The notes: a model not told the origin generated them from the letters alone. A stretch of DNA of 41,424 bases from Chloroflexota bacterium (GCA_022570885.1 JACZYW010000001.1:1-41424), one strand, 5' to 3'; positions 3,629 through 39,855 are shown, counted from the stretch's first letter. A program made the numbers and translations.

Positions 3629-4684
3629 TTAGCTCTGCTGGCTCAGCCGCCGGCGCCAGTAGCCCAGCCCGATCAGGCCCATCCCTAGGCTGGCCAACGT
3701 AACGACGAAGCTGAAGAGCGAGCCAATGCCACCTGGCAGAGGGAACCCGCCACCCGTTTCCGGCGGCCCCTTCACCGCTGGCCCCGGCGTCGCGGTCGGG
3801 TCTGCCACCGTTGGCTCCGGCGTCGCGGATGGCCCGATCACCGTCGGCAGAATCTCGGACGTGGGCGTCGTTTCAGGAGCTGTCGTGGTAGGTGTCGCCT
3901 CAGTCGGCGTGGCCGTGGGCAGTGGCGGCGTGGCCGTGGGCGGCGTAGCCGTGGGCGGTGGCGGCGTAGCCGTGGGCGGTGGCGGCGTGGCCGTGGGTGG
4001 TGGCGGCGTGGCCGTGGGCGGTGGCGGCGTGGCCGTGGGCGGTGGCGGCGTGGCCGTGGGCGGTGGCGGCGTGGCCGCGGGTGATAGCGGTGTGGCCGCG
4101 GGTGGTGGCGGCGTGGCCGTGGGCGGTGGCGGCGTGGCCGTGGGCGGTGGCGGCGTGGCCGTGGGCGAGACGCCGCACGGAGGGAAGCTTTCCGATCTCT
4201 CCGGGTTCAAGTCCGGCCGCTGGCTGGTGTCGACTTCAACTCGAATGGAGTTGGCGTCCGGACTGACGCCGGCGCTGCTGAGCGGGCCGTATAAGAGGAC
4301 GACGCTTTCCCCAGGATCCAGGGTGACATTGACTGCAACGGAGGCGCCGGTCGTAAGGAAGAAGGGGCTGCCTCCGAGGGCGGGTGGGATGTGCTGCGCG
4401 AGTACCAGCGGTATCTGGTCCGATACCTGATCCTGCGTCCGGTTCGCCACGGTGATGGTGCCGCTTACACTCCCGTCGGGCGCACAGGTGGCTGTGATCG
4501 ACACGATCTCCACTGGCCCGAAGGGTTGCCCCGCGGTGGATGAGCTTCTCATCAGAGCGACGCCGATGGTGACGAAGGTTGCCAGACACAGGAGCGCCGT
4601 GAGCAGGCCTAAGAGCACGGTGAGCGGGAAAGACCCTGCCGGTGAAGCTTTCCGCCGTTGTCGGTAATGTATCGACCCAGACAT
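3629..4684 (-). CDS. membrane/cell-surface protein with TATPPPP tandem repeats and a sortase-signal-like C-terminus
   Basis: 351 aa. N-terminal TM/signal-anchor FPLTVLLGLLTALLCLATFVTIGVAL, a globular part, then about 11 TATPPPP heptads. The C-terminus reads GPPETGGG + hydrophobic segment (IGSLFSFVVTLASLGMGLIGLGYW) + RRRL. SD GGGGGA lies upstream of the ATG. Confidence 0.7.
   Translation of the reverse strand: MSGSIHYRQRRKASPAGSFPLTVLLGLLTALLCLATFVTIGVALMRSSSTAGQPFGPVEIVSITATCAPDGSVSGTITVANRTQDQVSDQIPLVLAQHIPPALGGSPFFLTTGASVAVNVTLDPGESVVLLYGPLSSAGVSPDANSIRVEVDTSQRPDLNPERSESFPPCGVSPTATPPPPTATPPPPTATPPPPAATPLSPAATPPPPTATPPPPTATPPPPTATPPPPTATPPPPTATPPPPTATPPTATPPLPTATPTEATPTTTAPETTPTSEILPTVIGPSATPEPTVADPTATPGPAVKGPPETGGGFPLPGGIGSLFSFVVTLASLGMGLIGLGYWRRRLSQQS
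3906..4166. repeat. 21-bp in-frame tandem repeat (about 12 copies) encoding TATPPPP
   Basis: The unit GCCGTGGGCGGTGGCGGCGTG is reiterated with few substitutions. It lies inside CDS 3629-4684 and generates spurious ORFs in several frames. Confidence 0.9.
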
Positions 4685-4929: not shown

Positions 4930-6213
4930 CTACTCGACGAGCACCACATCCGGGGCTTCGAAAGTGCGGAACTCTCCATACGTGAGGTCGAGGGGCGAGT
5001 TGCCGGATAGTTGAAAGCCGTTCACGATGAGCTGCACCGTGCCGAATTGAGAGTCGCCACTGATGTCTAACGTGGCCCCCGGCGCGTAGAAGATGCCGCT
5101 GATCAGATCGTTGCTCCCACGCATCTTAAAGTCAGCGGTGATCGCTTCGTCCTGCCAGAGGGTGATGCCTTCATAGGGGCCGGAGGTGGGCGGAGACAAG
5201 TCCATAGCGCCGGAACCCGTCAGGTCGAACGGCTTGGGCGCGCCATCTCCCGTGGGATTGGTCGGATTTTCCGTGACGTAGATCATGACTCCGTCGCCAA
5301 CAAAGCTCGCACCGCCTGCCTTGGAGAAGCCACCGCCGGCCATGATATAGATGCCGGGCTGGAGCGTGATGGTACAGGTGCAGTTGGAGTAGAAGCCGCC
5401 GTAGTACGTGCCGGGATACAGCGTGAAGTCTCCGCCGCTAGTGACGGTCCACGTATCGGGGTTCACGGCGGTACCGGAGGATCCCGGCGCTGGCGACCCC
5501 AGCGAGGGCGGTGACAGGCTCGCCAGCGGGTCGCTGACCGTCCAAGACACACTATTCGGCTCCGGGCTGATAGTGCCCGAACCGCCGACGTCGTATCCGC
5601 CGTACACGTCAATACTGCCTTCCACGATGAGGTCGCCGGCGCCGGTCTTGCTCAGAGCGTCGGATGGGCAGCTAGAGTTGACCATGACGCCGCCCCCGGC
5701 GATCGTCAGGCTGGCATTCCCTTGCTGTCTGAAAGATTGGCAATCGTCCGGGTCCAGCACAACCAGAGCATACGGTTCTGGGAAGAGGGGGAAGCCGGCC
5801 ACCCCGCGTGCCTGCACCGTCGAGCCGCCTGGTATCAAGACATGGATGAAGAACGTCGGCGGTTGCTCGGAGACGATCACCTCCACGTAGAGTGGATCGC
5901 CAACATGCGCGCCTGAAGTGGGTGGGATGTTGACCGTAACCGTGCTGGAGCCGCCGCTGTTGTCGAAGCCGTTCTCGTCTGCGTATGCCAGCGCCGTGGT
6001 GGTGGCATCGGCAACGCTGCGGCCGTTGAACAGCTCGTAGGTTGCGGCGAGCGCCGCCTCGTCGGCAGCGTTCTGCGCCTGGCGATGCTCCGCGTAGAGA
6101 TAACCGACGTCGATGACAAGTCCAGTGAAGGCGAGGAGGGCGACGATCACGAATGCCGAGAGCACAAGTATCTGCCCTCGTTCGTCCCGTAGCGTTCGTA
6201 GATTGCGCTTCAT
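4930..6213 (-). CDS. TadG-like pseudopilin / Flp-pilus-assembly TadE/G-like N-terminal domain protein
   Basis: 427 aa. The N-terminus RDERGQILVLSAFVIVALLAFTGLVIDVGYLYAEHRQAQNAADEAALAA is typical of the TadG-like N-terminal domain. The remainder is G/S/T-rich and beta-rich. SD GAGGAG precedes the ATG. Confidence 0.72.
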   Translation of the reverse strand: MKRNLRTLRDERGQILVLSAFVIVALLAFTGLVIDVGYLYAEHRQAQNAADEAALAATYELFNGRSVADATTTALAYADENGFDNSGGSSTVTVNIPPTSGAHVGDPLYVEVIVSEQPPTFFIHVLIPGGSTVQARGVAGFPLFPEPYALVVLDPDDCQSFRQQGNASLTIAGGGVMVNSSCPSDALSKTGAGDLIVEGSIDVYGGYDVGGSGTISPEPNSVSWTVSDPLASLSPPSLGSPAPGSSGTAVNPDTWTVTSGGDFTLYPGTYYGGFYSNCTCTITLQPGIYIMAGGGFSKAGGASFVGDGVMIYVTENPTNPTGDGAPKPFDLTGSGAMDLSPPTSGPYEGITLWQDEAITADFKMRGSNDLISGIFYAPGATLDISGDSQFGTVQLIVNGFQLSGNSPLDLTYGEFRTFEAPDVVLVE

Positions 6214-6232: not shown

Positions 6233-6682
6233 CTAATTAGCGATCGCCATGGTCGACGAGCTGGACATGTCGAACTCGAGTATCCCGAACATGTTGAAGA
6301 TAGGCGTGTACGTGTATTGAGAGGACACCGTGACTCGGTTGCCCTTCTCGTTGGTGCCGTCGATCCAGGTGGTTTCCACCGTCAACTGCAAAGTGTTCAG
6401 TGAGCCGGCATGGTTCTCAACCACCTGGGAAACCTGCGTATCGCTGTTCGGGGACGTGTAATAGCTGCTGCCCGGCCCGCTGGGATCCGAGGAGTCGGCG
6501 CCGTGGACGATCGCGTAGCGAGTGCCCTCTCGCGTCGCCTCGGCCAGCGCGTTGTAGTGCCAGACGGCGCGGCCGATGTCGATCATGCCGAAGACCAGCA
6601 TGAAGAAGATAAGCGAGATCAGTGCGAACTCCGTCAACGCTTGGCCGCCCTCGCCCCGTTTGGCAACGCGGAACCGCCTCAT
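6233..6682 (-). CDS. TadE-like pseudopilin
   Basis: GQALTEFALISLIFFMLVFGMIDIGR matches the prepilin-like G/xxxxEF motif plus hydrophobic helix. The start is taken at the internal ATG 6682, which overlaps the upstream stop as ATGA. The track ORF extends to 6742. Confidence 0.72.
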   Translation of the reverse strand: MRRFRVAKRGEGGQALTEFALISLIFFMLVFGMIDIGRAVWHYNALAEATREGTRYAIVHGADSSDPSGPGSSYYTSPNSDTQVSQVVENHAGSLNTLQLTVETTWIDGTNEKGNRVTVSSQYTYTPIFNMFGILEFDMSSSSTMAIAN

Positions 6683-7209: not shown

Positions 7210-7303
7210 AGAGGTCCGGCAGCCCGGCTGTCCTCTTCCCGTATAGGTGGTGGACCCGTGGCTTTGCGTCCCCGGCTCTCGCCGGGTTTGCCCTGTTCGG
7301 AGT
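7210..7303 (-). promoter_or_regulatory. c-di-GMP-I (GEMM) riboswitch aptamer in the 5' leader of the tadE-like operon
   Basis: The minus strand reads CUCCGAACAGGGCAAACC-CGGC-GAGA-GCCG-GGGACGCAAAGCC-ACGGGUCC...GGACAGCCGGGCUGCCGGA. The blocks ACAGGGCAAACC and GGGACGCAAAGCC are identical to my recollection of the Vibrio Vc2 aptamer. There is a 4-bp helix with a GNRA loop, and the second helix has an AG bulge. The aptamer ends 70 nt before ATG 7143. Confidence 0.85.
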
Positions 7304-15562: not shown

Positions 15563-15684
15563 CCTCCGATAAAGGCGCGGCGCGGGAAACCGCGTTTGGC
15601 CGAAAGGCCCCCGGCGATTCGTCCGGGCGCAAAGCTTCGGGTCTACTCCCCGCGAGGGGAACGACAGCCGAGCTGCCGAAGAGG
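15563..15684 (+). promoter_or_regulatory. divergent GEMM (c-di-GMP-I)-like riboswitch candidate
   Basis: The 3' half CGCAAAGCUUCGGGUC-...-GACAGCCGAGCUGCCGAAG matches the 7210-7303 element (ACGCAAAGCCACGGGUCC-...-GGACAGCCGGGCUGCCGGA), including the AG bulge and compensatory helix changes. Both share the 5' CUCCGA. The first helix is replaced by three hairpins, two with GAAA loops. CCGAA (15676-80) can alternatively pair with UUCGG (15690-94), which overlaps the SD GGAGG. Confidence 0.5.
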
Positions 15685-16574: not shown

Positions 16575-17936
16575 ATGACCACAGAGACGACGCCCTCTAT
16601 CACGCGAGACGAGCCCGCTGAGCCCGACACCCCCACCGGCGCCTTCGTGCCCCAGCCGAGGAGCATCGAGGAGACGGGGCTGGAGCTCTCGCTCCTGGTT
16701 GACCTGGCGCTGAAGTCCATCCACTTCAGCGGCCGGCCTACCGGACGCCAGTTGGGCGAGCATCTCGCCTTGGCCTTCCCGGTGATCGAGGAGATCGTCG
16801 CGTTTCTCCGCCAAGAGCAGGCCATCGAGGTCGTCGGCAGTTCAGGCATTGGAGAGCAGGCGTATCAGTATGCACTATCGAAGCGGGGCACGGAGAAGGC
16901 GGAGGAGGCCTTGGGGCGCAATCAGTACGTCGGGCCGGCGCCGGTCCCCCTCTCGCTCTATACCGATGTCTTGCAGCACCAGTCCGTGCGCGATGTCCAC
17001 ATCGACCGTCAAACGTTCCTCGATGGGGTCTCGCACCTAGTCTTGAGTCGAAACGTGCTGGCTGCGTTGGGCCCGGCGGCTAACACCGGCCGCTCTGTGC
17101 TCATTTACGGCAACTCCGGCAACGGCAAGAGCAGCCTCGCCCTCGCTATCGCCGGCATGATGCCAGGCGCAGTGCTGATCCCGTACGCGGTAGAGGTGCA
17201 TGGGCAGATCATCAAGGTGTTCGATCCGCGCATGCACGAACCGGCGAAGCCGCAGGTGGCGGAGGAACGCCGGCAGACCGCCGCCTCGCCACCTGCTGGG
17301 CGGGAACGCCGCCAGGACCGGCGCTGGGTGGTGGCGAAGCGCCCGATGATTCGGGTGGGCGGCGAGCTGACGCTCCAGGATTTGGAGCTGCGGTATTCGG
17401 AGCTTTCCAAGTTCTACATCGCGCCGTTGCAGTGGAAGGCGAACAGCGGTGTGCTCATCATCGATGACTTTGGCCGGCAGCTGGTGCAGCCGAGAGAGCT
17501 GCTCAACCGCTGGATCGTGCCGATGGAGCAGGGGGTGGATCGCCTCTCGCTCCACACCGGCGATACGTTGGACTTGCCCTTCGAGGTCTTGCTCATCTTC
17601 TCGACGAACATCCCGCCGGCGAAGCTGGGCGACGAGGCGTTCTTCCGTCGCATCCGGCACAAGGTAGAGGTCCCCAACCCTACCCGAGAGGAGTATCTGG
17701 CGATCCTGGTTCGGGTCTGCGAGGAGCAGGGCGTTGCGCACACGGAGGAAGGCGCGCGTTACCTGGTTGAGGCCTACTATGATCAGACTGACCGTGAATT
17801 CAAGGGCTGCCATCCCCGAGACCTGGTGGAGCTCCTGATCGATATCACCAACTTCTACGGCGAGGAGCCGGAGCTGACGCCGGAGTGGATCGACCTGGCC
17901 TGCTCCTCCTACTTCGTCGAGGCTGAGGCTGCCTAG
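16575..17936 (+). CDS. AAA+ ATPase with an N-terminal winged-helix-like domain
   Basis: 453 aa with strong SD AAGGAGG. Walker A is LIYGNSGNGKSS and Walker B is VLIIDDFG. NRWIVPMEQGVDRLSLHTGDTLDLPFEVLLIFSTN...DEAFFRRI follows an AAA_5/MoxR-like layout. Confidence 0.85.
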   Translation: MTTETTPSITRDEPAEPDTPTGAFVPQPRSIEETGLELSLLVDLALKSIHFSGRPTGRQLGEHLALAFPVIEEIVAFLRQEQAIEVVGSSGIGEQAYQYALSKRGTEKAEEALGRNQYVGPAPVPLSLYTDVLQHQSVRDVHIDRQTFLDGVSHLVLSRNVLAALGPAANTGRSVLIYGNSGNGKSSLALAIAGMMPGAVLIPYAVEVHGQIIKVFDPRMHEPAKPQVAEERRQTAASPPAGRERRQDRRWVVAKRPMIRVGGELTLQDLELRYSELSKFYIAPLQWKANSGVLIIDDFGRQLVQPRELLNRWIVPMEQGVDRLSLHTGDTLDLPFEVLLIFSTNIPPAKLGDEAFFRRIRHKVEVPNPTREEYLAILVRVCEEQGVAHTEEGARYLVEAYYDQTDREFKGCHPRDLVELLIDITNFYGEEPELTPEWIDLACSSYFVEAEAA

Positions 17937-19053: not shown

Positions 19054-19143
19054 AGAGGCTCCCGGCCGTTCGGCCGGGAGCCTCTCTCTTCGCTGCGGTG
19101 CTACTCCGCCTCTACGGCGGCCCGACGAAGACCATGGTGAAGT
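19054..19143. repeat. 90-bp perfect direct repeat, right copy (terminator + authentic 3' end of the CAP gene)
   Basis: Identical to 17961-18050. It overlaps the CDS stop at 19112. Confidence 0.97.
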
Positions 19144-19981
19144 ACTTCATGTTCCCATCGGCGGCGAACCCGACGCCTAGCTGCGTAAACTCGACGTGGA
19201 GGATGTTCGCCCGGTGGCCGGGGCTGTTCATCAGGTCGCGGATGGCCACGGCCACGCTCTCGCTGTCGGGATAGTTGTTCCGCGCCAGGTTCTCCCCGGC
19301 CCAGCCGTAGCCCACGTTGTTCTCGTTCATGAGCGAGAAGGCGGTGTCACCGTGTGGGCTCTCATGCGCGAAGTAGTCTTTCGCTGCCATATCCTCAGAG
19401 CGGAGATTGGCGACGAACACCACGCATGAGTTGAGGCCCAGCGCTGACATCCCGTTGTCAGCCCTCGCGCTGTTGATGGCGTCGAAGAGCGCCTGCGCGA
19501 AGCTTCCCATGGCGGCCGTGGGACAGCTTGGGGGCTGGGGCGTAGGAACAGCCGTCGGCGGCACCGCCGTGGGTGGTACTGCGGTCGGCGCTAGCGCTAG
19601 CGGCACGGCGGTTGGCGCTAGCGGTACTGCGGTTGGCGCTGGCGATACTGCGTTCGGATCTCCCAACGCTGGCGTAGGTGTCAGAAGCGAAAGCGGCGTT
19701 CCTATCGGCGTTGGCGAGGCTGCGCGCGTCGCCGTGGGGATGATAGTGGCCGTAGGATCGTCCGCGATGGTGCTGCTGCCGTCCGCTGGCTCGACCGCTG
19801 TGAGCTCGTCGGCGGCGCTGGAAGCGGGCGCCCCGTCCCAATCCACTGCGAGAAGGAACGTTGCAGAGAAGGCGAAGAGGCTGAGCCCGCCGATGATCAA
19901 CGCCGCTCGTAGCAGCGCGACGCGCGTATTGCCCGTCAGCCAGCGAAGGCGCCCAAAGCGGCGGGGTGGAATGTTGTCCAT
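19112..19981 (-). CDS. membrane-anchored CAP/SCP (PR-1/YkwD-like) domain protein
   Basis: Start at ATG 19981 (SD GGAG); the track ORF opens at 20128. TM ALLRAALIIGGLSLFAFSATFLL. Pro/Thr/Ala linker with PTAVP repeats. C-terminal SCP-like ...DMAAKDYFAHESPHG...GWAGENLA...LMNSPGHRANIL.... Confidence 0.82.
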   Translation of the reverse strand: MDNIPPRRFGRLRWLTGNTRVALLRAALIIGGLSLFAFSATFLLAVDWDGAPASSAADELTAVEPADGSSTIADDPTATIIPTATRAASPTPIGTPLSLLTPTPALGDPNAVSPAPTAVPLAPTAVPLALAPTAVPPTAVPPTAVPTPQPPSCPTAAMGSFAQALFDAINSARADNGMSALGLNSCVVFVANLRSEDMAAKDYFAHESPHGDTAFSLMNENNVGYGWAGENLARNNYPDSESVAVAIRDLMNSPGHRANILHVEFTQLGVGFAADGNMKYFTMVFVGPP

Positions 19982-20119
19982 GTTTGCTCCGATCTCGCGT
20001 AAGCAGCGAATGTGTATGTAGAGGAGTCTCTTAGGGAATATCGGCGTAGTAGGTGAAAACCTTAAGGGAAATGGAGCGAACAGTGGCAACAGATGGCCCG
20101 AAACTTGCCGCGAACCTGC

Positions 20120-20149
20120 TTGACACACCTCGCAGATTCCAGATAGACT
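20120..20149 (+). promoter_or_regulatory. candidate promoter of the rpsL operon
   Basis: TTGACA (20120-20125), 18 nt, TAGACT (20144-20149), about 175 nt upstream of rpsL. Confidence 0.4.
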
Positions 20150-23458: not shown

Positions 23459-23767
23459 ATGCCACAGCAAAGAATCCGGATCCGCCTCAAGGCGTACGAC
23501 CACCGCCTCATCGATCAGTCCGCTGAGCAGATCGTGGAAGCGGCGGAGCGGACGGGCGCGGTTGTCGCCGGGCCGATCCCGCTCCCAACGCACATCAAGA
23601 AACTCACCGTCATTCGCTCGCCCTTCGTCCATAAGGACGGCCGGGAGCAGTTCGAGATTCGCACACACAACCGGCTGATCGACATCCTCAGCCCCACCTC
23701 GAAGACGGTCGATACGCTGATGCGGCTCCAACTGCCCTCCGGCGTGGACATCGAGGTCAAGCTGTGA
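23459..23767 (+). CDS. rpsJ: 30S ribosomal protein S10
   Basis: [18 protein letters not shown]... 102 aa. Starts 2 nt after the fusA stop. Confidence 0.97.
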
Positions 23768-24567
23768 TCCAGGGATTGCTCGGCCGCAAGCTCGGCATGC
23801 TCCAAACCTTCGACAAGGAGGGCCGGCTTCGCGGCGCCACCGTCATCGAGGCTGGGCCGTGCCTGGTCACCCAGATCAAGACCGATGAGACCGACGGCTA
23901 CGCCGCCGTGCAGCTCGGTTTCGGTATCGCCAAGCACACCAACAAGCCCAAGCGCGGCCACCTGAAGCGTCTGGGCGACCTGCGCTACCTGCGCGAGTTC
24001 AAGGCAGACGATTCCAGCCAGCACAAGGTGGGCGATCGCATCGGAGTGGAGATCTTCCAAGAAGGCGATCGCGTGGACGTTACCGGCACCAGCATCGGCA
24101 GGGGCTTCGCAGGCGGAGTCAAGCGCCACGGCTTCCACGGCGGACCCAAGACCCACGGTCAGTCGGATCGCCACCGCGCGCCCGGCTCCATCGGCGCGGG
24201 CGGCCCAGGCCGCGTGTTCAAAGGGATGAAGATGGCCGGCCACATGGGAGCGGAGCGCGTCACCGTCCGCAACCTGGAGGTGCTCCAGAGTGATCCCGCT
24301 CGGGGCCTGCTCCTGGTGGCGGGGGCGGTGCCCGGCGCCCGCCACGGCCTCCTTAAGATCCGCTACACCACGCAGACGCTGGAGATAGCTCGCAACCGCA
24401 AGGTGGAGCCGCCCGAGGAAGAAGCGCCGAAGGCTGCGACCGAAGAGGCGACGCCGGAGGCCGCGACCGAGGAAGCAGCGCCGAAGACTACGACCGAAGA
24501 GAAGACGCCGGAGGCCACCGCTAACGAGAGCGAGGCCGAGACGGCTGCGGACGAAGAGAAATCGTGA
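23764..24567 (+). CDS. rplC: 50S ribosomal protein L3 with an acidic C-terminal tail
   Basis: [12 protein letters not shown]...GHMG.ERVTV.NLEV. About 210-aa core plus about 55 aa of E/A/T/P-rich tail. Confidence 0.96.
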
Positions 24568-25241
24568 TGAAGCTGGACGTGCGCGATCGCGCAGGCAAGA
24601 AAGTGAAGTCCATCGAGGTCGACGAGCAGGTATTCGGGCTCAAGCCCTACCGTTCCCTGGTGCACCAGGCCATGGTCGCTCAGCGGGCGAACCTGCACCG
24701 TGGCACGCACAAGACCAAGAGCCGGGGCGAGGTACGCGGCAGCACGGCGAAGCTCTATCGACAGAAGGGCACCGGCCGCGCCAGGGCGGGCTCCGCCCGT
24801 TCGGGCATTCGTCGCGGCGGCGGGGTGATCTTTGGCCCGCGGCCTCGCAGCTATCGGCAGGACCTGCCGAAACGCATGCGCCGCCTCGCCCTCCGCTCCG
24901 TCCTCTCCGCGAAGGCCGCGAACGGCAGCCTGCAGGTGCTCGACGAGCTGACGATGAAGTCGCCGCGCACGAAGGAGATGCTGGGCGTGCTCCAGAAGCT
25001 CGGCTTCGACCGATCGACCCTGGTGGTCACGGCCCAGCCTGAGCCGATCGTTAAGCTGAGCGTCCACAACCTGCCGAAGGTGAAGTGGATGCCGGCCGAC
25101 TACCTCAACGTGCTCGATCTCCTAAACCATCGAGGGCTGCTGATGACGGAAGATGCGGTTCGCAGGGCGGAAGCGCTCTGGGGCGGCGAACGGGCGAACA
25201 AGCGCCGCGCTCCGCTACCCGAGGCGGTGTCCAATGCCTAA
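24564..25241 (+). CDS. rplD: 50S ribosomal protein L4
   Basis: ...[13 protein letters not shown]...[13 protein letters not shown]... Confidence 0.96.
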
Positions 25242-25530
25242 GGCTCTCCACCCGTACCAGGTCATCGTCCGGCCGCTCATCACGGAGAAGGCGACGATTC
25301 TGGCCGGCGAGAACAAGTACGTGTTCGAGGTGGTCCAGCGGGCGAACAAGCGGCAGATCCGCGGGGCCGTCGAACTCGCCTTCAACGTGCACGTGACCAA
25401 GGTCAACACGATGAACATGCGTGGCAAAAAACGCCGCGTCGGCAGCAAGATCGCGCGCACCCCGGATTGGAAGAAGGCGATCGTCACCCTGGTCGAAGGC
25501 GACAAGATTCAGCTCTTCGAGGGCGTGTAG
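25234..25530 (+). CDS. rplW: 50S ribosomal protein L23
   Basis: Internal ATG 25234 overlaps the rplD stop by 8 nt. [13 protein letters not shown]...WKKAIVTL. Confidence 0.95.
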
Positions 25531-27148: not shown

Positions 27149-28132
27149 ATGGGTCAGAAAGTACATCCAACCGGGTTCCGCCTCGGCGTCATCTTCGATT
27201 GGCAGAGCAAGTGGTTTGCCGAACGGAACTACCGGGAGTTTCTCCACGAAGATTTGAGCATCCGCCGCTATATCAGCAAGGCGCTGAAGGACGCCAGCGT
27301 CGCCAAGGTGGAGCTCGACCGAAACGCCAATCAGGTCACCGTGACGATCCATACCGCGAAGCCCGGCATCGTCATCGGCCGTGGCGGTCAGAAGGTCGAC
27401 GAGCTGCGCACCCAGCTGGAGTCGCTCACGAAAAAACGCATTCGAGTGAACATCAATGAGGTGCGCATGCCGGAACTCGATGCGCAACTGGTCGCCCGTA
27501 ACATCGCCGACCAGCTCGAGCGGCGCGTCGCCTTTCGGCGAGCGCTCAAGCAGACCGTGAGCCGGACAATGGCTCGCGGCGCCGAAGGCTGCAAGGCAAT
27601 GGTCGCCGGTCGCCTGGGCGGCTCGGAGATGTCGCGCAGAGAGAGCACCATGGAGGGGAGAGTGCCCCTCCACACCATCCGCGCCAACATCGACTATGGC
27701 CAGGCCGAAGCGGCTACGACGTTCGGTCGCATCGGCGTCAAAGTCTGGATTTACAAGGGCGAGATGCTGCCTGAGAAGGCAGAGAAGGCCCCAGCAGAGG
27801 CGAAGGCGCCCGAAGCGAAGCCTGCTGCCAAGGCGCCCGTGGCGACGGAAACTTCGCCCAGCGCCGACGCACCGGCCGCACCCGAGGTGAAGCCTGCTGC
27901 CGAGGCGACGGTCGTGCCCGAAGCGAAGCCTGCTGCCGCCGCGCCGGCCGCGCCCGAGGCGAAGCCTGCTGCCGCCGCGCCGGTCGCACCCGAGGCGAAG
28001 CCTGCTGCCGAGGCGGCGGTCGCACCCGAGGCGAAGCCTGCTGCCAAGAAGAAAGACACGCCGCCCAGCGCAGACGAAACCAAGGCCGGTGATGCTGAGA
28101 AGCAAGCACCGGAGAGCGAGAAGCAAGGATAA
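27149..28132 (+). CDS. rpsC: 30S ribosomal protein S3 with a roughly 110-aa PEAKPAA-repeat tail
   Basis: [13 protein letters not shown]...KH domain...[10 protein letters not shown] core, followed by a low-complexity tail. Confidence 0.96.
27881..28051 (+). repeat. 36-bp in-frame tandem repeat (about 4.7 copies) in the rpsC tail
   Basis: Units start at 27881, 27917, 27953, 27989 and 28025 (CCCGAGGCGAAGCCTGCTGCC...). Confidence 0.9.
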
Positions 28133-28138
28133 GCGGGC

Positions 28139-28558
28139 ATGTTAGCACCGAAGCGTGTTAAGTGGCGCAAGACGCATCGCGGCAGGCGCCGAGGCAAGGC
28201 CATGGCCGGGAACCAGGTGACCTTCGGCGAGTTTGGCCTTCAGGCAACGACCAACGCGTGGGTGACCGCTCGCCAGATAGAGGCCGCTCGTCGCGCCATC
28301 ACGCACGAGATTCGACGAGGCGGCAAGGTGTGGATTCGCATCTTCCCGGATAAGCCGGTGACAAAGAAGGCCGCCGAGACCCGCATGGGGAGCGGTAAAG
28401 GCGTGCCGGAGTTCTGGGTGGCCGTGGTGAGACGCGGTCGCATGCTCTTCGAGATCGCCGGCGTGGCTGAAGAGCCGGCGCGAGAGGCGATGCGGCTGGC
28501 CGCGCACAAGCTGCCCGTCCAGACCCGATTCGTCGTCCGCGAGCACGAGGTGTTCTAG
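28139..28558 (+). CDS. rplP: 50S ribosomal protein L16
   Basis: [17 protein letters not shown]. Confidence 0.97.
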
Positions 28559-28802: not shown

Positions 28803-29657
28803 ATGCCCGGACAAGCGAAAGGCCTGATCGGCACGGTGGTGAGCAACAAGATGAGCAAGACCGTGGTCGTGCTCGTCGAGACCACCACTCGCCACCGGCT
28901 CTACCACAAGATCCTGCGCCGGAGCAAGCGCTACCAAGCCCACGACGACCGGCTGGAAGCCAAGCCGGGCGACCGTGTGCGCATCCTCGCCACGCGGCCG
29001 CTCTCCCGCCACAAGCGCTGGCGGGTCTCGGAGATCCTGCAGCGAGGCGAAGTGGCCGAAGTGGCGTCTAGAGAGATCGATAGCGAGTACTTCGGTCGCA
29101 AGCGGGAGCGGGCTCCCGTTGAGGACGCCCCCGCAACTGAGGCTAAGCCCCAGGCAGTAGCTGAAGCCCCCGCGACCGAGGCCGAGGCTCCGGCGGCTGA
29201 CGAAGCCCCCGCAACCGAGGCAGAGGCTCCGGCGGCTGACGAAGCCCCCGCGACCGAGGCCGAGGCTCCGGCGGCTGACGAAGCCCCCGCAATTGAGGCA
29301 GAGGCTCCGGCGGCTGACGAAGCCCCCGCGACCGAGGCTGAGCCCCAGGCAGTAGCTGAAGCCCTCGCGACCGAGGCCGAGGCTCCGGCGGCTGACGAAG
29401 CCCCCGCAACTGAGGCCGAAGCCCCCGCGACCGGCGAAGCCCCCGCGACCGAGGCAGAGGCTCCGACGACTGGCGAAGCCCCCGCAGCCGAGGCCGAGCC
29501 CCAGGCAGAAGCTGAGGCCCCTGCGGCTGAGGAAGCCCCCACAGACGAGGCAAAGCCTGCCGAGGAGCCGGCCACAGACGAGCCAAAGCCCGCCGAGGAG
29601 CCAACGCCGGAAGAGCCGGCCAGCGGCGAGAAGACGGAGGAGCGTGACGCACCGTGA
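28803..29657 (+). CDS. rpsQ: 30S ribosomal protein S17 with a roughly 195-aa acidic tandem-repeat tail
   Basis: The core [17 protein letters not shown]...[15 protein letters not shown]...RWRVSEIL occupies about the first 85 aa. The rest is an E/A/P/T tail. The stop overlaps the rplN start (GTGA). Confidence 0.95.
29124..29513 (+). repeat. 39-bp in-frame tandem repeat (about 10 copies) in the rpsQ tail
   Basis: Units start at 29124, 29163, 29202, 29241, 29280, 29319, 29358, 29397, 29436 and 29475 (GAAGCCCCCGCGACCGAGGCCGAGGCTCCGGCGGCTGAC and variants). Confidence 0.92.
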
Positions 29658-30022
29658 TCCAGAAGTACACCCGGCTGAAGGTGGCCGATAACTCGGGCGC
29701 CCGCCAGATCATGTGCATCCAGGTGCTGGGCGGCACGCGGCGTCGGTACGCCCGAGTCGGCGATGTCATCGTCGCCTCCGTCAAGCAGGCGCAGCCAGCT
29801 TCAGGCGTAAAGAAGGGCGACGTTATCCGCGCGGTCGTGGTGCGCACAGCGAAGGGCTGGCAGCGCAGCGACGGCACGTCGATCAAGTTCGATGAGAACG
29901 CAGCCGTCCTCCTGGAGGATAAGGAGAACCCGCGCGGCACCCGCATCTTCGGGCCCGTCGCTCGCGAGCTGCGGGACCGTCGATTCATGAAGATTATCTC
30001 GCTGGCGCCGGAGGTAGTGTGA
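29654..30022 (+). CDS. rplN: 50S ribosomal protein L14
   Basis: [17 protein letters not shown].... Confidence 0.97.
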
Positions 30023-30336
30023 TGCGAAAGCTCAAACGCGACGATTTGGTGCTGGTAACCACCGGTAAGGAGCGCGGCAAGCAAGGGCAGATCCGCGATG
30101 TCCTCACCAGCAAGCAGCGGGTGATCATCCAAGGCTTGAACATGGTGAAGCGCCATCAGGCCCAGAAGGACGAGCGGACACCGGCCGGCATCATCGAGAA
30201 AGAGGCGCCGATCCACATCTCCAACCTCAAGCTCATCTGCCGCGCTTGCCAAAAGCCGGTGCGCGTCGGCTTCCGTGTACGGTCGGATAACGTAAAGGTT
30301 CGCGTCTGCCGCTCATGCGGCGAAGACGTCGATTAG
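30019..30336 (+). CDS. rplX: 50S ribosomal protein L24
   Basis: KOW motif [18 protein letters not shown]. Confidence 0.95.
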
Positions 30337-33182: not shown

Positions 33183-34019
33183 GTGGAACAACACGAGCTT
33201 CGGCCGCCTCGTGGGGCGAAGAGGCCCCGCAAGCGCATTGGGCGCGGCAACGCCAGCGGCCACGGTACCTACTCCGGCCGGGGGATCAAGGGTCAGCAGT
33301 CCCGGTCCGGCTCCGGGCCGTCACACGCCTTCGAGGGCGGTCAGACGCCGCTGGTCCGGCGCCTTCCCCGCCGGCGCGGGTTTACCAACCCGTTTCGCGT
33401 CGCCTACACACCGGTTAACCTGCACGATCTCGCCAAGTTCCCCGATGGCGGCGAAGTGACGCCGGAATCGCTGCACGAGATGGGCGTGGTTCGCTCGCTC
33501 CGCCGCCCGGTCAAACTCCTGGGCGATGGCGACCTGAGCGTCGCACTGATGGTGCGAACGCACCGCGTCTCGGACGCCGCTCGCGCCAAGATCGAGGCCG
33601 CAGGCGGCACCGTCGAGGAGCTGACCCCGCGTCCGCCCCCTTCGGAGCGCGAGACTAAGGCGGAGCGCAGGGCTAAGGCGAGGGCGCCGAAGGCCGAGGA
33701 GCCCGCGTCGGAGGAGACGAGCCCGCAGGCGGAAGCGCCGGAGGCGCCGTCGGCAGACGTAGACACGCCGGAAGCCAAGCCGAGCGCCGCGAAGCCGAAG
33801 AAGGCCACGGCGAAGGCTGAGGCGGCCGAGAAGAAGCCGAAGAAGGCCACGGCGAAGGCCGAGGCGGGCGAGGAGAAGCCGAAGAAGGCCCGGAAGGCGA
33901 AGACGAGCGCCTCGAAGCCTAAGAAAAGCGCTGCGAAAGCGAAGAAGGGCGAGGCGGAGGCCGCTGGGACTGAGGAGAACGTGTCTCCTGATCCAGAGGC
34001 CGCTGCGGCGAAGGACTGA
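33183..34019 (+). CDS. rplO: 50S ribosomal protein L15 with a roughly 125-aa Lys/Ala/Glu-rich tail
   Basis: Core L.PP.GAKR.RKRIGRG.ASGHG.TSGRG.KGQ... through about residue 150, then a KPKKATAKAEA-type tail. Confidence 0.95.
   Translation: MEQHELRPPRGAKRPRKRIGRGNASGHGTYSGRGIKGQQSRSGSGPSHAFEGGQTPLVRRLPRRRGFTNPFRVAYTPVNLHDLAKFPDGGEVTPESLHEMGVVRSLRRPVKLLGDGDLSVALMVRTHRVSDAARAKIEAAGGTVEELTPRPPPSERETKAERRAKARAPKAEEPASEETSPQAEAPEAPSADVDTPEAKPSAAKPKKATAKAEAAEKKPKKATAKAEAGEEKPKKARKAKTSASKPKKSAAKAKKGEAEAAGTEENVSPDPEAAAAKD
33792..33899 (+). repeat. 42-bp in-frame tandem repeat (about 2.5 copies) in the rplO tail
   Basis: AAGCCGAAGAAGGCCACGGCGAAGGC(T/C)GAGGCGG... occurs at 33792 and 33834, with a partial copy at 33876. 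Confidence 0.88.
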
Positions 34020-38748: not shown

Positions 38749-39855
38749 ATGGAAGTTGACACCTTTCAGACCACCGTGGCCGGGGAGATCACGGAAGAAG
38801 AAATAGCCGCTCCCCACATCACCATAGAAGAAGAGACAGAGGTACACGCCCTCTGCATAGCGGAGCCTTTGGCTCCCGGCTTCGGTATTACCCTGGGCAA
38901 TGCGCTTCGCCGCGTGCTGCTCAGCGCACTGCCGGGCGCCGCTATCACCTCCGTCCGCATCGAGGAAGTGGAGCATGAGTTCTCTACCATCTCCGGCGTG
39001 AAGGAGGACACGATGGAGCTGCTGCTTAACTTCAAGCAGCTCCGATTGCGTCCCCTCTCTGACCGGCCGGCCAAGATGTACCTCGAGGCCCGCACCGCGG
39101 GCGAAGTGCACGCCAGCGATATCCAGGTAGCCGCGGACTACGAGATCGTCAATCCGGACCTGGTCCTGGCAACGCTCGACTCCGATAAGGCGCATCTCAT
39201 CGTAGAGTTCACCGTGGAGTGCGGCCGGGGCTATCTCCCTGCCAGCCAGTCCGATGGCATGCCCATCGGTGTCATCCCTGTCGACGCCATCTTCACCCCG
39301 GTGCTGAAGGTGACCTACCGCGTGGAGCACACCCGCGTCGGGCAGATAACCGACTTCGACAAGCTCATCCTCGAGGTCTGGACCGATGGCAGCATCAGCG
39401 GTGTCGACGCAATCAGCCAGAGCGCCGATATCCTGCGCGAGGAGCTGAACATCTTCGCCCAGCTAGGCAAGCCGGAGCCGCCCGTAGTGGAGCACGGCGT
39501 TGGGCGCGGCCTCTCGTTGCCGCTTGAGCAGTTCAACACACCTATCGAGGATCTGAACCTCTCCGTGCGCGCCTACAACTGTCTGAAGCGAAGTGGCCTG
39601 ATGACCGTTGGCCAGGTGCTGGAGAAGAGCGAGGACGAACTCCTCACACTGCGCAACTTCGGCCAGAAGTCCTACGACGAGCTCAAGAGCCGCCTCGCAG
39701 AGTTTGGCTACCTCCAGCCGGAAGCGGAAGAGCCGGAAGCGGAGCTTGTCGAAGGAGAAGAGGGAGGGAACGCTGTCAGCCCGCTGGGCGCGGCCCTCAT
39801 CCAGGCGCTCAAGGAGGCGGGCGAGGACCCGTCCGAGCTGGAAGAGAAGGAGTAG
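38749..39855 (+). CDS. rpoA: DNA-directed RNA polymerase subunit alpha
   Basis: ...GFGITLGNALRRVLLS.LPGAAITSVRI..V.HEFS...; alpha-CTD LNLSVRAYNCLKRSGL.TVG.L. An acidic tail of about 45 aa follows. Confidence 0.96.
   Translation: MEVDTFQTTVAGEITEEEIAAPHITIEEETEVHALCIAEPLAPGFGITLGNALRRVLLSALPGAAITSVRIEEVEHEFSTISGVKEDTMELLLNFKQLRLRPLSDRPAKMYLEARTAGEVHASDIQVAADYEIVNPDLVLATLDSDKAHLIVEFTVECGRGYLPASQSDGMPIGVIPVDAIFTPVLKVTYRVEHTRVGQITDFDKLILEVWTDGSISGVDAISQSADILREELNIFAQLGKPEPPVVEHGVGRGLSLPLEQFNTPIEDLNLSVRAYNCLKRSGLMTVGQVLEKSEDELLTLRNFGQKSYDELKSRLAEFGYLQPEAEEPEAELVEGEEGGNAVSPLGAALIQALKEAGEDPSELEEKE

What the first reader, a model, noticed from the sequence alone, without database searches (positions are those of the whole stretch)
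28803..29657. S17 is more than three times its usual length through a roughly 195-aa acidic tail built from about ten 39-bp tandem repeats
The S17 fold ends near ...[13 protein letters not shown] (about residue 85). The ORF then continues in frame through units of about 13 aa ([13 protein letters not shown]-type; nt 29124-29513) and a further E/P/A/K stretch. Its stop overlaps the rplN start (GTGA), so the tail is part of the translated protein and not an intergenic artefact. The near-identical units imply recent expansion and probably copy-number polymorphism.
Basis: partly seen in the sequence, partly recalled or inferred. Interest (0 to 1): 0.65.

Follow-up and report, generated by a model that had tools for sequence, protein, structure and literature searches.

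The report
Ribosomal protein S17 with acidic repeat tail
This uncultured Chloroflexota bacterium makes ribosomal protein S17 with a real, roughly 200-residue, strongly acidic, disordered tail built from tandem repeats; the trait is shared by its whole lineage, varies in length even within a species, and has no known function or published description that I could find.

Summary
ORF 28803-29657 (+) encodes a 284-aa S17. It has a normal OB fold (residues ~5-84), a conserved 23-aa linker, exactly ten in-frame 39-bp units (29124-29513) and a 47-aa E/P/A/K end. Its TGA stop overlaps the GTG start of rplN.

The tail has net charge -48, is predicted disordered, and has no family or solved-structure match.

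The window is not unique:
- Hundreds of S17s from related Chloroflexota/Dehalococcoidia MAGs carry the same linker plus an acidic Ala/Glu/Pro tail. Totals run about 143-334 aa, and some exceed the window.
- Anaerolineae-type Chloroflexota have the usual 85 aa.
- In this window L3, S3 and L15 also carry repeat-built tails.

Conspecific contigs (97-98% DNA identity) encode S17s of 219-232 aa. They share the same head and end but have fewer units, always in frame. That fits the predicted copy-number polymorphism, although assembly error cannot be excluded.

The conserved terminal "EE" motif coincides with the rplN Shine-Dalgarno sequence, so it is weak evidence for a protein-level function.

The tail is most likely a solvent-exposed polyanionic brush, kept for its composition rather than its sequence. 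Its function is inferred, not shown. Interest is moderate. It is a new variant of a known kind, the lineage-specific ribosomal-protein extension.

The parts
28803..29657 (+). rpsQ (uS17) ORF, 284 aa including the tail; the end coordinate includes the TGA stop
28803..29054 (+). S17 OB-fold domain (residues 1-84; net charge +13, pI 11.5)
   Evidence: Pfam and NCBIfam hits; PDB S17 alignments to residues 3-87 or less; AlphaFold2 five-strand barrel E7-80 with pLDDT about 90; charge
29055..29123 (+). Clade-specific conserved linker (residues 85-107, [23 protein letters not shown]). E86, E91, I92, D93, Y96, R101 and E102 are at least 90% conserved in 55 relatives
   Evidence: alignment A2; pLDDT 62-66; no match to any solved S17 extension
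29124..29513 (+). Ten in-frame 39-bp tandem units (13 aa each; residues 108-237; net charge -34)
29514..29654 (+). Distal E/P/A/K segment (residues 238-284; net charge -13), including 33-bp x 2.4 repeats at 29539-29617. This end is shared almost unchanged by the conspecific alleles
29636..29642 (+). GGAGGAG, the Shine-Dalgarno-like element for rplN. It encodes the conserved C-terminal 'EE' of S17
   Evidence: GAGGAG lies 9-13 nt upstream of the rplN start in all tail-bearing relatives; sequence
29654..29657 (+). GTGA overlap of the rplN start (GTG) and the rpsQ stop (TGA), an arrangement typical of translational coupling
29654..30022 (+). rplN (uL14), 122 aa, normal length
   Evidence: called as Ribosomal_L14 in the conspecific loci
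27785..28129 (+). Companion feature: S3 C-terminal A/P/K/E tail (residues 213-327, net -3) built from 36/72-bp repeats. It is 299 aa in total in conspecific L017
24400..24564 (+). Companion feature: L3 acidic C-terminal tail (residues 213-267, net -13), 27/54-bp repeats
33633..34016 (+). Companion feature: L15 Lys/Ala/Glu/Pro C-terminal tail (residues 151-278, net +6), 21/42-bp repeats

Best explanation
rpsQ here encodes a genuine, fully translated S17 with three parts. The first is a canonical, very basic OB fold that binds 16S rRNA. The second is a short linker conserved throughout this Chloroflexota/Dehalococcoidia lineage. The third is a roughly 180-residue Ala/Glu/Pro-rich polyanionic segment that is intrinsically disordered.

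The tail grows and shrinks by in-frame gain and loss of tandem units, through replication slippage or unequal recombination. Different sub-lineages have amplified different units, and even conspecific populations differ in unit number. What is kept is the presence of a tail, its composition (acidic, Ala/Pro-rich, almost no Arg, Gly, Leu or aromatics) and its in-frame run to the rplN start. The sequence itself is not kept.

Inferred mechanism (not shown): because it is repelled by rRNA, the tail projects from the solvent-accessible side of the 30S body as a charged 'entropic bristle' or brush. Before assembly it could shield the +13 RNA-binding fold in cis and so limit non-specific RNA binding. 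On the mature ribosome it would add a large negative, non-sticky excluded volume. Together with the L3, S3 and L15 tails it would form a disordered corona.

Ribosomes that translate the tail deliver directly onto the rplN start site through the overlapping GTGA and the embedded GGAGGAG.
For: Shown:
- Domain limits and an open frame.
- Ten in-frame units.
- AlphaFold2 gives the fold pLDDT about 90, the linker 62-66, and the tail below 50 with no secondary structure.
- No Pfam family on the tail.
- Lineage-wide presence: the listed hits with the linker motif span 143-262 aa. Species-representative genomes have 182-334 aa, while Anaerolineae/Thermoflexales have 85 aa.
- Of the 146 nearest 50%-identity representatives that could be parsed, 82 have a C-tail of at least 40 aa and 62 of those are acidic.
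- Among 161 linker-bearing proteins, every complete-looking one keeps at least 59 residues after the fold; the median is 89.
- Independent unit types occur in different sub-lineages: 13, 15-16, 20 and 26 aa.
- Conspecific length variation is always a multiple of 3 nt, with conserved flanks.
- Composition looks selected. Pooled over 172 tails it is A 30%, E 26%, P 13%, with G 3.4% and R 1.2% against 9.0% and 7.5% in the background, despite a 65% GC genome. The other frames of the same DNA would encode 15-29% Arg in four of the five and 16-25% Gly in three.
- SD and start overlap are conserved.
- There is no promoter-like or terminator-like site inside the tail.

From established knowledge (not tested here): S17 is a primary 16S rRNA-binding protein at the junction of the 5' and central domains in the lower 30S body.
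Against: - No experimental evidence exists that the tail is present on mature ribosomes or has any function.
- Very rapid turnover and within-species length variation are also what a nearly neutral sequence would show.
- The only sequence-conserved part of the tail end is explained at the nucleotide level by the rplN SD.
- The cis-shielding idea does not generalise. The L15 tail in the same operon is basic and the S3 tail is nearly neutral, and a minority of related S17s carry Lys-rich tails.
- GC3 in the tail (0.68) is lower than in neighbouring genes (0.81-0.88), so codon usage there is not typical of highly expressed genes. A few amplified founder codons could explain that.
Confidence: 0.6

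Rival explanations
1. Nearly neutral 'tolerated junk'. Slippage-prone GC-rich repeats accumulate at a solvent-exposed C-terminus where they do no harm. The frame stays open only because a premature stop would uncouple or polarise rplN expression, and the tail itself has no function.
For: Unit number and sequence turn over fast, even within a species. Other non-ribosomal proteins in the window also contain repeat-built Pro/Thr/Ala segments. The conserved terminal motif is the rplN SD. Tail GC3 is atypical. A 76%-identical, 85-aa S17 without linker or tail exists on a short contig (P0103).
Against: A clean in-frame deletion of the whole tail would keep the coupling, yet no complete-looking linker-bearing member has fewer than about 59 residues after the fold. 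Composition is tightly constrained against the mutational expectation: Gly, Arg and Leu are depleted and Glu enriched across 172 tails. The linker is conserved at the sequence level. The trait persists across lineages that have diverged to about 50% identity in the fold.
Confidence: 0.28
2. The tail is real but the count of ten units is an assembly artefact. The apparent length polymorphism between contigs would then reflect collapse or expansion of repeats by assemblers and not biology.
For: The window's exact S17 is not on record in the contig collection that the look-up tool searches. A conspecific contig has a 185-N scaffold gap inside the S3 repeat array and a 50-bp deletion at the L4/L23 junction, which shows assembly trouble in this population. 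The 390-bp array of near-identical 39-bp units is longer than a typical short read.
Against: The alleles differ in unit sequence and in non-repeat indels, such as an 8-aa AEEPPTVE insertion in P0121 and P0123, and not only in count. The window has no Ns, and its units carry a distinctive non-periodic pattern of variants. Equally long or longer arrays occur in other species, including a 334-aa S17 on a 711-kb contig. All versions are in frame.
Confidence: 0.2
3. The tail is translated but removed or degraded after translation. Mature ribosomal S17 would then be about 85-110 aa, and the tail would act only during synthesis or assembly, or not at all.
For: Long disordered tails are protease-accessible, and there are no data on the mature protein. 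This is inference only.
Against: No conserved cleavage-type motif is evident between linker and repeats. Making and discarding about 200 residues of a highly expressed protein in every copy is costly.
Confidence: 0.08
4. The tail is not translated as S17. Either a sequencing error hides a stop or frameshift, or the real feature lies on the other strand, in the long antisense ORFs 28931-29575 and 29143-30252.
For: High-GC DNA yields long ORFs in several frames.
Against: The same frame is open, and ends at the rplN start, in every relative examined (16 S17 sequences read in full for this; the listed hits fit the same pattern). The antisense ORFs have no Pfam match, run antisense to conserved rpsQ, rplN and rplX, and have no coding-like GC3 peak. 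No tRNA or Rfam family lies in the region.
Confidence: 0.02

Closest known systems
Canonical bacterial uS17 (Pfam PF00366; NCBIfam TIGR03635), e.g. E. coli or B. stearothermophilus S17
   Same: Residues 5-84 are a standard S17 OB fold, 40-50% identical to solved S17s. The gene sits in the usual L29-S17-L14 order.
   Different: Canonical proteins end within a few residues of the fold, at 80-90 aa. This one continues for a further 200 residues with net charge -48.
Thermus thermophilus S17 C-terminal extension (about 20 residues; 105-aa protein in PDB 1FJG/1J5E)
   Same: It is a lineage-specific addition at the same terminus of S17.
   Different: There is no detectable sequence relation. Alignments to the Thermus chains stop at window residue 87. 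From general knowledge, the Thermus extension is short, basic and ordered on rRNA. The one here is 10 times longer, acidic and predicted disordered.
N-terminally extended S17 of other phyla (solved mycobacterial uS17, 135 aa; metagenomic 229-258-aa forms with an acidic-then-basic N-terminal extension)
   Same: S17 carries a long, low-complexity Ala/Glu/Pro-rich extension (P0185, P0202, P0205; PDB 5V93 chain q).
   Different: The extension is at the other terminus and includes a strongly basic Arg/Lys-rich segment next to the fold. It has no shared linker motif and is an independent acquisition.
Mitochondrial uS17m with C-terminal extensions (yeast 237 aa; kinetoplastid 307-336 aa)
   Same: The S17 fold is followed by a long extra C-terminal region.
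   Different: Those extensions are organelle-specific, not repeat-built and not polyanionic. From general knowledge they are largely ordered within the mitoribosome.
Ala/Pro/Glu-rich flexible linkers and acidic tails (bL12 and P-stalk hinge/tail, E2 lipoyl-domain linkers, TonB Glu-Pro/Lys-Pro rod). This comparison is from general knowledge.
   Same: The composition (Ala, Pro, Glu) favours extended, soluble, non-collapsing chains. The P-stalk is a precedent for acidic flexible tails on ribosomes.
   Different: There is no conserved hydrophobic or factor-binding terminal motif like that of the P-stalk, and the only conserved end motif is explained by the rplN SD. S17 sits far from the GTPase centre. 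The units are recent tandem duplicates.

Membership tests
Bacterial ribosomal protein uS17 | Match to the S17 family profile above the curated threshold | tested here: met
   PF00366 91.9 bits (cut-off 25.9); TIGR03635 97.2 bits (cut-off 88.7); NF004123 99.3 bits (cut-off 74)
Bacterial ribosomal protein uS17 | Five-stranded OB-fold barrel | tested here: met
   AlphaFold2 strands E7-15, E20-30, E37-47, E58-63 and E73-80 at pLDDT about 90; sequence alignment to solved S17 chains
Bacterial ribosomal protein uS17 | Conserved operon position between rpmC (L29) and rplN (L14) | tested here: met
   L16-L29-S17-L14-L24-L5 order in the window and in the conspecific loci
Bacterial ribosomal protein uS17 | Incorporation into the 30S subunit | not testable with these tools
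   Needs ribosome purification and MS or cryo-EM
Tail-bearing S17 of the Dehalococcoidia-type Chloroflexota clade (database sequences; no published description found) | Conserved linker R-G-E-V-x-E-[IV]-x-x-[RKQ]-E-I-D-x-x-Y after the fold | tested here: met
   The window has [18 protein letters not shown]86, E91, I92, D93 and Y96 are at least 90% conserved in 55 sequences
Tail-bearing S17 of the Dehalococcoidia-type Chloroflexota clade (database sequences; no published description found) | Acidic Ala/Glu/Pro tail of at least about 59 residues that runs in frame to the rplN start | tested here: met
Thermus-type S17 C-terminal extension | Sequence similarity of the post-fold segment to residues 85-105 of T. 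thermophilus S17 | tested here: not met
   phmmer alignments to the 1FJG/1J5E chains end at window residue 87, and the linker query gave no extension match at E <= 10
Intrinsically disordered acidic tail ('entropic bristle') | Predicted lack of stable structure and low-complexity charged composition | tested here: met
   pLDDT below 50 and no secondary structure over residues 107-277; A 37%, E 24%, P 16% with no aromatics
Intrinsically disordered acidic tail ('entropic bristle') | Experimentally disordered and solvent-exposed on the assembled particle, with an effect on solubility, assembly or interactions | not testable with these tools
   Needs cryo-EM, SAXS, NMR and deletion genetics
P-stalk / bL12-like factor-recruiting acidic tail | Conserved C-terminal factor-binding motif at the end of the flexible acidic region | tested here: not met
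   The C-terminal residues vary (EERDAP, EEREES, EEQEKP, DEEKVQ...). The only constant part is GAGGAG, the rplN SD

The most novel reading that the evidence does not exclude
The S17 tail would be one element of a co-evolved set of charged disordered tails: S17 -48, L3 -13, S3 about 0, L15 +6, plus the acidic RpoA end. Together they would give the ribosomes of this uncultured lineage a polyampholyte 'corona'. The corona would tune ribosome-ribosome and ribosome-nucleoid interactions (spacing, condensation, hibernation, resistance to aggregation). Repeat-number variation would act as a fast evolutionary dial on that physical property.
Probability: 0.1. Interest if true: 0.75.

Novelty: new variant of a known kind. 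Interest (0 to 1): 0.4.

Why it matters
Bacterial ribosomal proteins are usually treated as nearly invariant in architecture, and their known extensions are mostly short, basic and bound to rRNA. Here a primary rRNA-binding protein carries a 200-residue polyanion that reverses its net charge. The tail is maintained across a large and environmentally widespread uncultured lineage, and it evolves by repeat gain and loss fast enough to differ within a species. Three other ribosomal proteins in the same operon show the same habit.

If the tails sit on mature ribosomes, these organisms have ribosomes with unusual surface physics. They would be a natural system for studying what disordered tails do on a bacterial ribosome.

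There are practical consequences too. These arrays break short-read assemblies; one conspecific contig has an N-gap inside the S3 repeats. They would probably also add noise to alignments of ribosomal marker proteins, so rpsQ, rpsC, rplC and rplO lengths in Chloroflexota MAGs should be treated with caution. The effect on alignments was not tested here.

Tried and rejected
(1) Search with only the N-terminal 108 aa. The hit lengths stopped sharply at 189 aa, which is 1.75 x the query length, so I judged that a tool length filter. I repeated the search with the full protein, which revealed the 190-262-aa relatives and the near-identical alleles.

(2) Exact-sequence look-up of the window's S17: not on record, so the source assembly could not be identified.

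(3) Homology of the conserved linker to the Thermus S17 extension or to any solved chain: none found.

(4) Sharing of repeat units between the S17 tail and the S3, L3 or L15 tails: none; the unit is private to rpsQ.

(5) An internal promoter or terminator in the tail, because rpsQ|rplN is the S10/spc operon boundary in E. coli: none found. The idea that the tail arose by read-through into a former intergenic spacer therefore has no support. Tail-less Chloroflexota also have only a 2-nt spacer there.

(6) Taking the conserved C-terminal 'EE(R)D..' as evidence of a protein-level functional motif: rejected, because it coincides with the GAGGAG SD of rplN in all relatives.

(7) Antisense ORFs across the tail: no family hits and no coding signature.

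(8) Rfam and tRNA scans: nothing in the region.

(9) Five full-text literature searches and four papers checked. No description of acidic repeat tails on S17 or of Chloroflexota ribosomal-protein tails turned up. A lead that a 16S rRNA region is deleted in Chloroflexi ('16Gap4') could not be mapped to a helix from the text, so I dropped it.

Full report
OBSERVATION.

The ORF at 28803..29657 on the + strand starts with ATG and encodes 284 aa. Residues 10-77 match Pfam Ribosomal_S17 (2.7e-26). The protein passes the NCBIfam equivalog thresholds for bacterial uS17. Solved S17 chains align only to residues 3-87 or less. Everything after about residue 84 is therefore extra.

Tandem Repeats Finder reports three arrays:
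- a 39-bp unit x 8.6 copies (29163-29498, score 462);
- a 117-bp super-period (29127-29508);
- a separate 33-bp x 2.4 repeat (29539-29617).

Cutting the sequence in 39-nt steps from 29124 gives exactly ten in-frame 13-aa units ending at 29513. They fall into two types, [13 protein letters not shown] and [13 protein letters not shown]. Units 2 and 4 are identical at the DNA level and other A-type units differ by 1-4 nt. The unit occurs nowhere else in the window, and no shuffle produced a match.

The TGA stop (29655-29657) overlaps the GTG (29654) that opens rplN, whose product begins with the canonical L14 N-terminus. Only the S17 frame lacks stops across the tail. The window contains no Ns.

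ANATOMY.

The protein has four segments:
- A basic OB fold, residues 1-84, net charge +13, pI 11.5. AlphaFold2 models it at pLDDT about 90.
- A 23-residue linker, [23 protein letters not shown], at pLDDT 62-66. Its E86, E91, I92, D93, Y96, R101 and E102 are at least 90% conserved among 55 relatives.
- The ten repeat units, residues 108-237, net charge -34.
- A distal E/P/A/K stretch, residues 238-284, net charge -13.

The 200 residues after the fold have net charge -48 and bring the whole protein to pI 4.4. From residue 107 onward the model has pLDDT below 50 and no secondary structure. No Pfam family covers the tail. The linker has no counterpart in any solved S17, including the Thermus chains that have their own C-terminal extension.

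The two long antisense ORFs across the region have no family match and no coding-type GC3 signal. There is no Rfam family, tRNA, promoter-like site or terminator-like site in the region.

CONTEXT IN THE WINDOW.

The gene lies in a standard S10-spc-alpha ribosomal cluster, running from S7 and EF-G at 20.8 kb to L17 at 40.2 kb. Three other ribosomal proteins in the cluster carry repeat-built, low-complexity C-terminal tails:
- L3: 267 aa, 55-aa acidic tail, net -13.
- S3: 327 aa, 115-aa A/P/K/E tail, net -3.
- L15: 278 aa, 128-aa Lys-rich tail, net +6.

RpoA also ends in a short acidic stretch. The other ribosomal proteins have ordinary lengths.

RELATIVES.

The nearest S17s come from uncultured Chloroflexota/Dehalococcoidia MAGs, and almost all are extended. 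With the N-terminal 108 residues as query, the listed hits were 143-189 aa. That upper bound proved to be a length limit of the tool. With the full-length query, relatives of 190-262 aa appeared.

All of them share the linker motif followed by an Ala/Glu/Pro-rich acidic tail ending in ...EE(R/K/Q)xx(P/S).

In species-representative genomes the S17 ORF is 318 aa (L001), 296 aa (L004) and 334 aa (L007). L007 carries nine near-perfect 26-aa units on a 711-kb contig. L002, L003, L010 and L013 have 162-192 aa. Thermoflexales and Brachythrix (Anaerolineae-type Chloroflexota) and non-Chloroflexota hits have 85-108 aa. S3 tails occur in the same genomes as S17 tails, with S3 of 246-395 aa.

An exhaustive search of 1.84 billion cluster representatives gave 150 top hits, of which 146 could be parsed. 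Of these, 82 have a C-tail of at least 40 aa, 47 at least 80, 25 at least 120 and 4 at least 160 (maximum 203). Sixty-two of the 82 are clearly acidic. A few are Lys-rich, and a few look like frameshifted calls.

The window's tail is therefore at the long end of a common, lineage-wide trait, and it is not unique. Different sub-lineages have amplified different units (13, 15-16, 20 and 26 aa), so expansion has happened repeatedly and independently.

POLYMORPHISM.

Two contigs, L016 and L017 (the latter from GCA_022563325.1, 'Chloroflexi bacterium'), are 97-98% identical to the window across the operon. Collinearity breaks only at three places: the S17 repeats, the S3 repeats, and a 50-bp deletion in L016 at the L4/L23 junction, where the window is intact.

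Their S17s are 232 and 226 aa, and a third near-identical allele (P0122) is 219 aa. All share the window's head (through ...[18 protein letters not shown]) and its last 40 or so residues. They differ in the number and partly in the sequence of internal units. The differences from the window are 52, 58 and 65 aa, and 52 and 65 are exactly 4 and 5 units. In a sister population, two assemblies differ by one 20-aa unit.

One caveat applies. L016 has a 185-N scaffold gap inside its S3 repeats, and the window's exact S17 is not on record. Repeat numbers from assemblies are therefore provisional. Differences in unit sequence, and an 8-aa non-repeat indel between alleles, argue against simple collapse.

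IS THE TAIL TRANSLATED AND SELECTED?

Translation is supported by three things. The frame is open. Every indel seen, within and between species, is a multiple of three. In every tail-bearing relative the ORF runs precisely to an overlapping or abutting rplN start.

I tested whether the conserved C-terminal motif argues for a protein-level function, and it does not. The 'EE' is GAGGAG lying 9-13 nt upstream of the rplN start in all relatives, so it is the Shine-Dalgarno sequence for rplN.

Two other observations do argue for selection on the tail.

First, among 161 linker-bearing proteins, every complete-looking one keeps at least about 59 residues after the fold (median 89). The four or five shorter ones lack the usual ending, and most have no contig on record, so they are probably fragments. 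An in-frame deletion of the whole tail would preserve coupling, yet it is not seen.

Second, composition is held far from the mutational expectation. Pooled over 172 tails (12,497 residues) it is A 30%, E 26% and P 13%. Gly is 3.4% and Arg 1.2%, against 9.0% and 7.5% in this genome's ordinary proteins, and Leu and the aromatics are nearly absent. Of the five other reading frames of the same DNA, four would encode 15-29% Arg and three would encode 16-25% Gly.

Against this, tail GC3 (0.68) is below that of neighbouring genes (0.81-0.88). An 85-aa S17 without linker or tail, 76% identical, also exists on a short contig (P0103).

MECHANISM.

Shown: the architecture, the predicted disorder, the charge, the mode of evolution by repeats, the lineage distribution, and the gene arrangement expected for translational coupling.

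Inferred: S17 is a primary 16S rRNA binder in the lower 30S body (established knowledge, not tested here). A -48 tail cannot lie on rRNA, so it should project into solvent as a charged brush with a contour length of up to about 70 nm. The conserved linker is the likely anchor or spacer.

Two roles are plausible. One is cis-shielding of the very basic fold before assembly, which would reduce non-specific RNA binding. The other is a non-sticky, negatively charged excluded volume on the mature subunit.

The shielding idea does not explain the basic L15 tail or the neutral S3 tail. For that reason the more general 'disordered corona' reading is kept as the novel case at low probability. The main rival is a nearly neutral, tolerated slippage product, and I give it about 0.28.

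COMPARISON WITH KNOWN SYSTEMS.

The protein is a bona fide uS17 by profile, fold and synteny. Four comparisons were considered:
- The Thermus-type extension: no sequence relation, opposite charge and order.
- The N-terminally extended S17s seen in other phyla: the other terminus, with a basic segment.
- The ordered uS17m extensions of mitoribosomes.
- The P-stalk and bL12 acidic tails: the composition is similar, but this tail lacks a conserved terminal binding motif.

Five full-text literature searches, plus targeted reading of four papers, found no description of this trait. The sequences themselves are in public databases, labelled simply as S17.

VERDICT.

It is a lineage-wide variant of the known phenomenon of lineage-specific ribosomal-protein extensions. 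What sets it apart is that the tail is long, polyanionic, built from repeats and variable in length. It is not unique to this genome, and its function is unknown.

Interest is moderate at 0.4. It is worth a comparative and structural follow-up, but it is not a categorical novelty.

Noticed in passing
window 27149-28132 (tail 27785-28129): S3 is 327 aa, with a 115-aa Ala/Pro/Lys/Glu C-terminal tail built from 36/72-bp tandem repeats (27809-28048). The conspecific contig L017 has a 299-aa S3 with different units, and L016 has a 185-N gap inside the array. Relatives have S3 of 246-395 aa.
   Followed up: partly
window 33183-34019 (tail about 33633-34016): L15 is 278 aa, with a 128-aa Lys/Ala/Glu/Pro tail (net +6) containing 21/42-bp repeats (33774-33946). 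The conspecific L016 has the same length. The tail is basic, unlike the S17 tail.
   Followed up: partly
window 23764-24567 (tail about 24400-24564): L3 is 267 aa, with a 55-aa acidic Glu/Ala/Thr/Pro tail (net -13) containing 27/54-bp repeats (24413-24516).
   Followed up: partly
window 38749-39855 (last ~50 codons): RpoA ends in an acidic stretch (residues 320-368, net -13) beyond the usual C-terminal domain.
   Followed up: no
window 7214-7301 (-) and 15596-15680 (+): Two c-di-GMP-I-type riboswitch aptamers score above Rfam gathering thresholds: RF03167, the GGC variant, at 75.9 bits, and RF01051 at 49.1 bits. The first lies upstream, on the - strand, of small ORFs and a protein at 4930-6213 that looks like a Tad/Flp-pilus assembly protein (my reading of its N-terminal sequence; no family search was run). 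The second precedes small ORFs and a 453-aa protein (16575-17936) containing a Walker A (P-loop) motif (read from the sequence; no family search was run).
   Followed up: no
window 3629-4684 (-), repeats 3905-4167; window 19112-20128 (-), repeats 19575-19652: Non-ribosomal proteins also contain repeat-built low-complexity segments. One is a membrane-anchored protein with about 12 copies of TATPPPP from a 21-bp repeat. The other has PTAVP repeats, and its conspecific counterpart in L016 is called as a CAP-domain protein (PF00188). Repeat expansion in coding DNA seems to be a general habit of this genome.
   Followed up: no
L016 about 6250-6270 against window 25220-25270: The conspecific contig L016 lacks 50 bp at the L4/L23 junction. 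This fuses L4 out of frame and truncates L23 to 39 aa. The window is intact (L4 225 aa; L23 starts [19 protein letters not shown]). It is probably an assembly error in L016.
   Followed up: yes
proteins P0301, P0303, P0230, P0322: A minority of related S17s carry Lys/Ala/Pro-rich basic C-terminal tails in place of acidic ones, so tail charge is not uniform across all extended S17s.
   Followed up: no
protein P0036: This 120-aa database protein is 99% identical to the window's S17 up to residue 76. It then continues as the antisense translation of rplP (identical to the window's - strand ORF 28240-28509), so it is a chimeric or misassembled short contig from the same population.
   Followed up: partly
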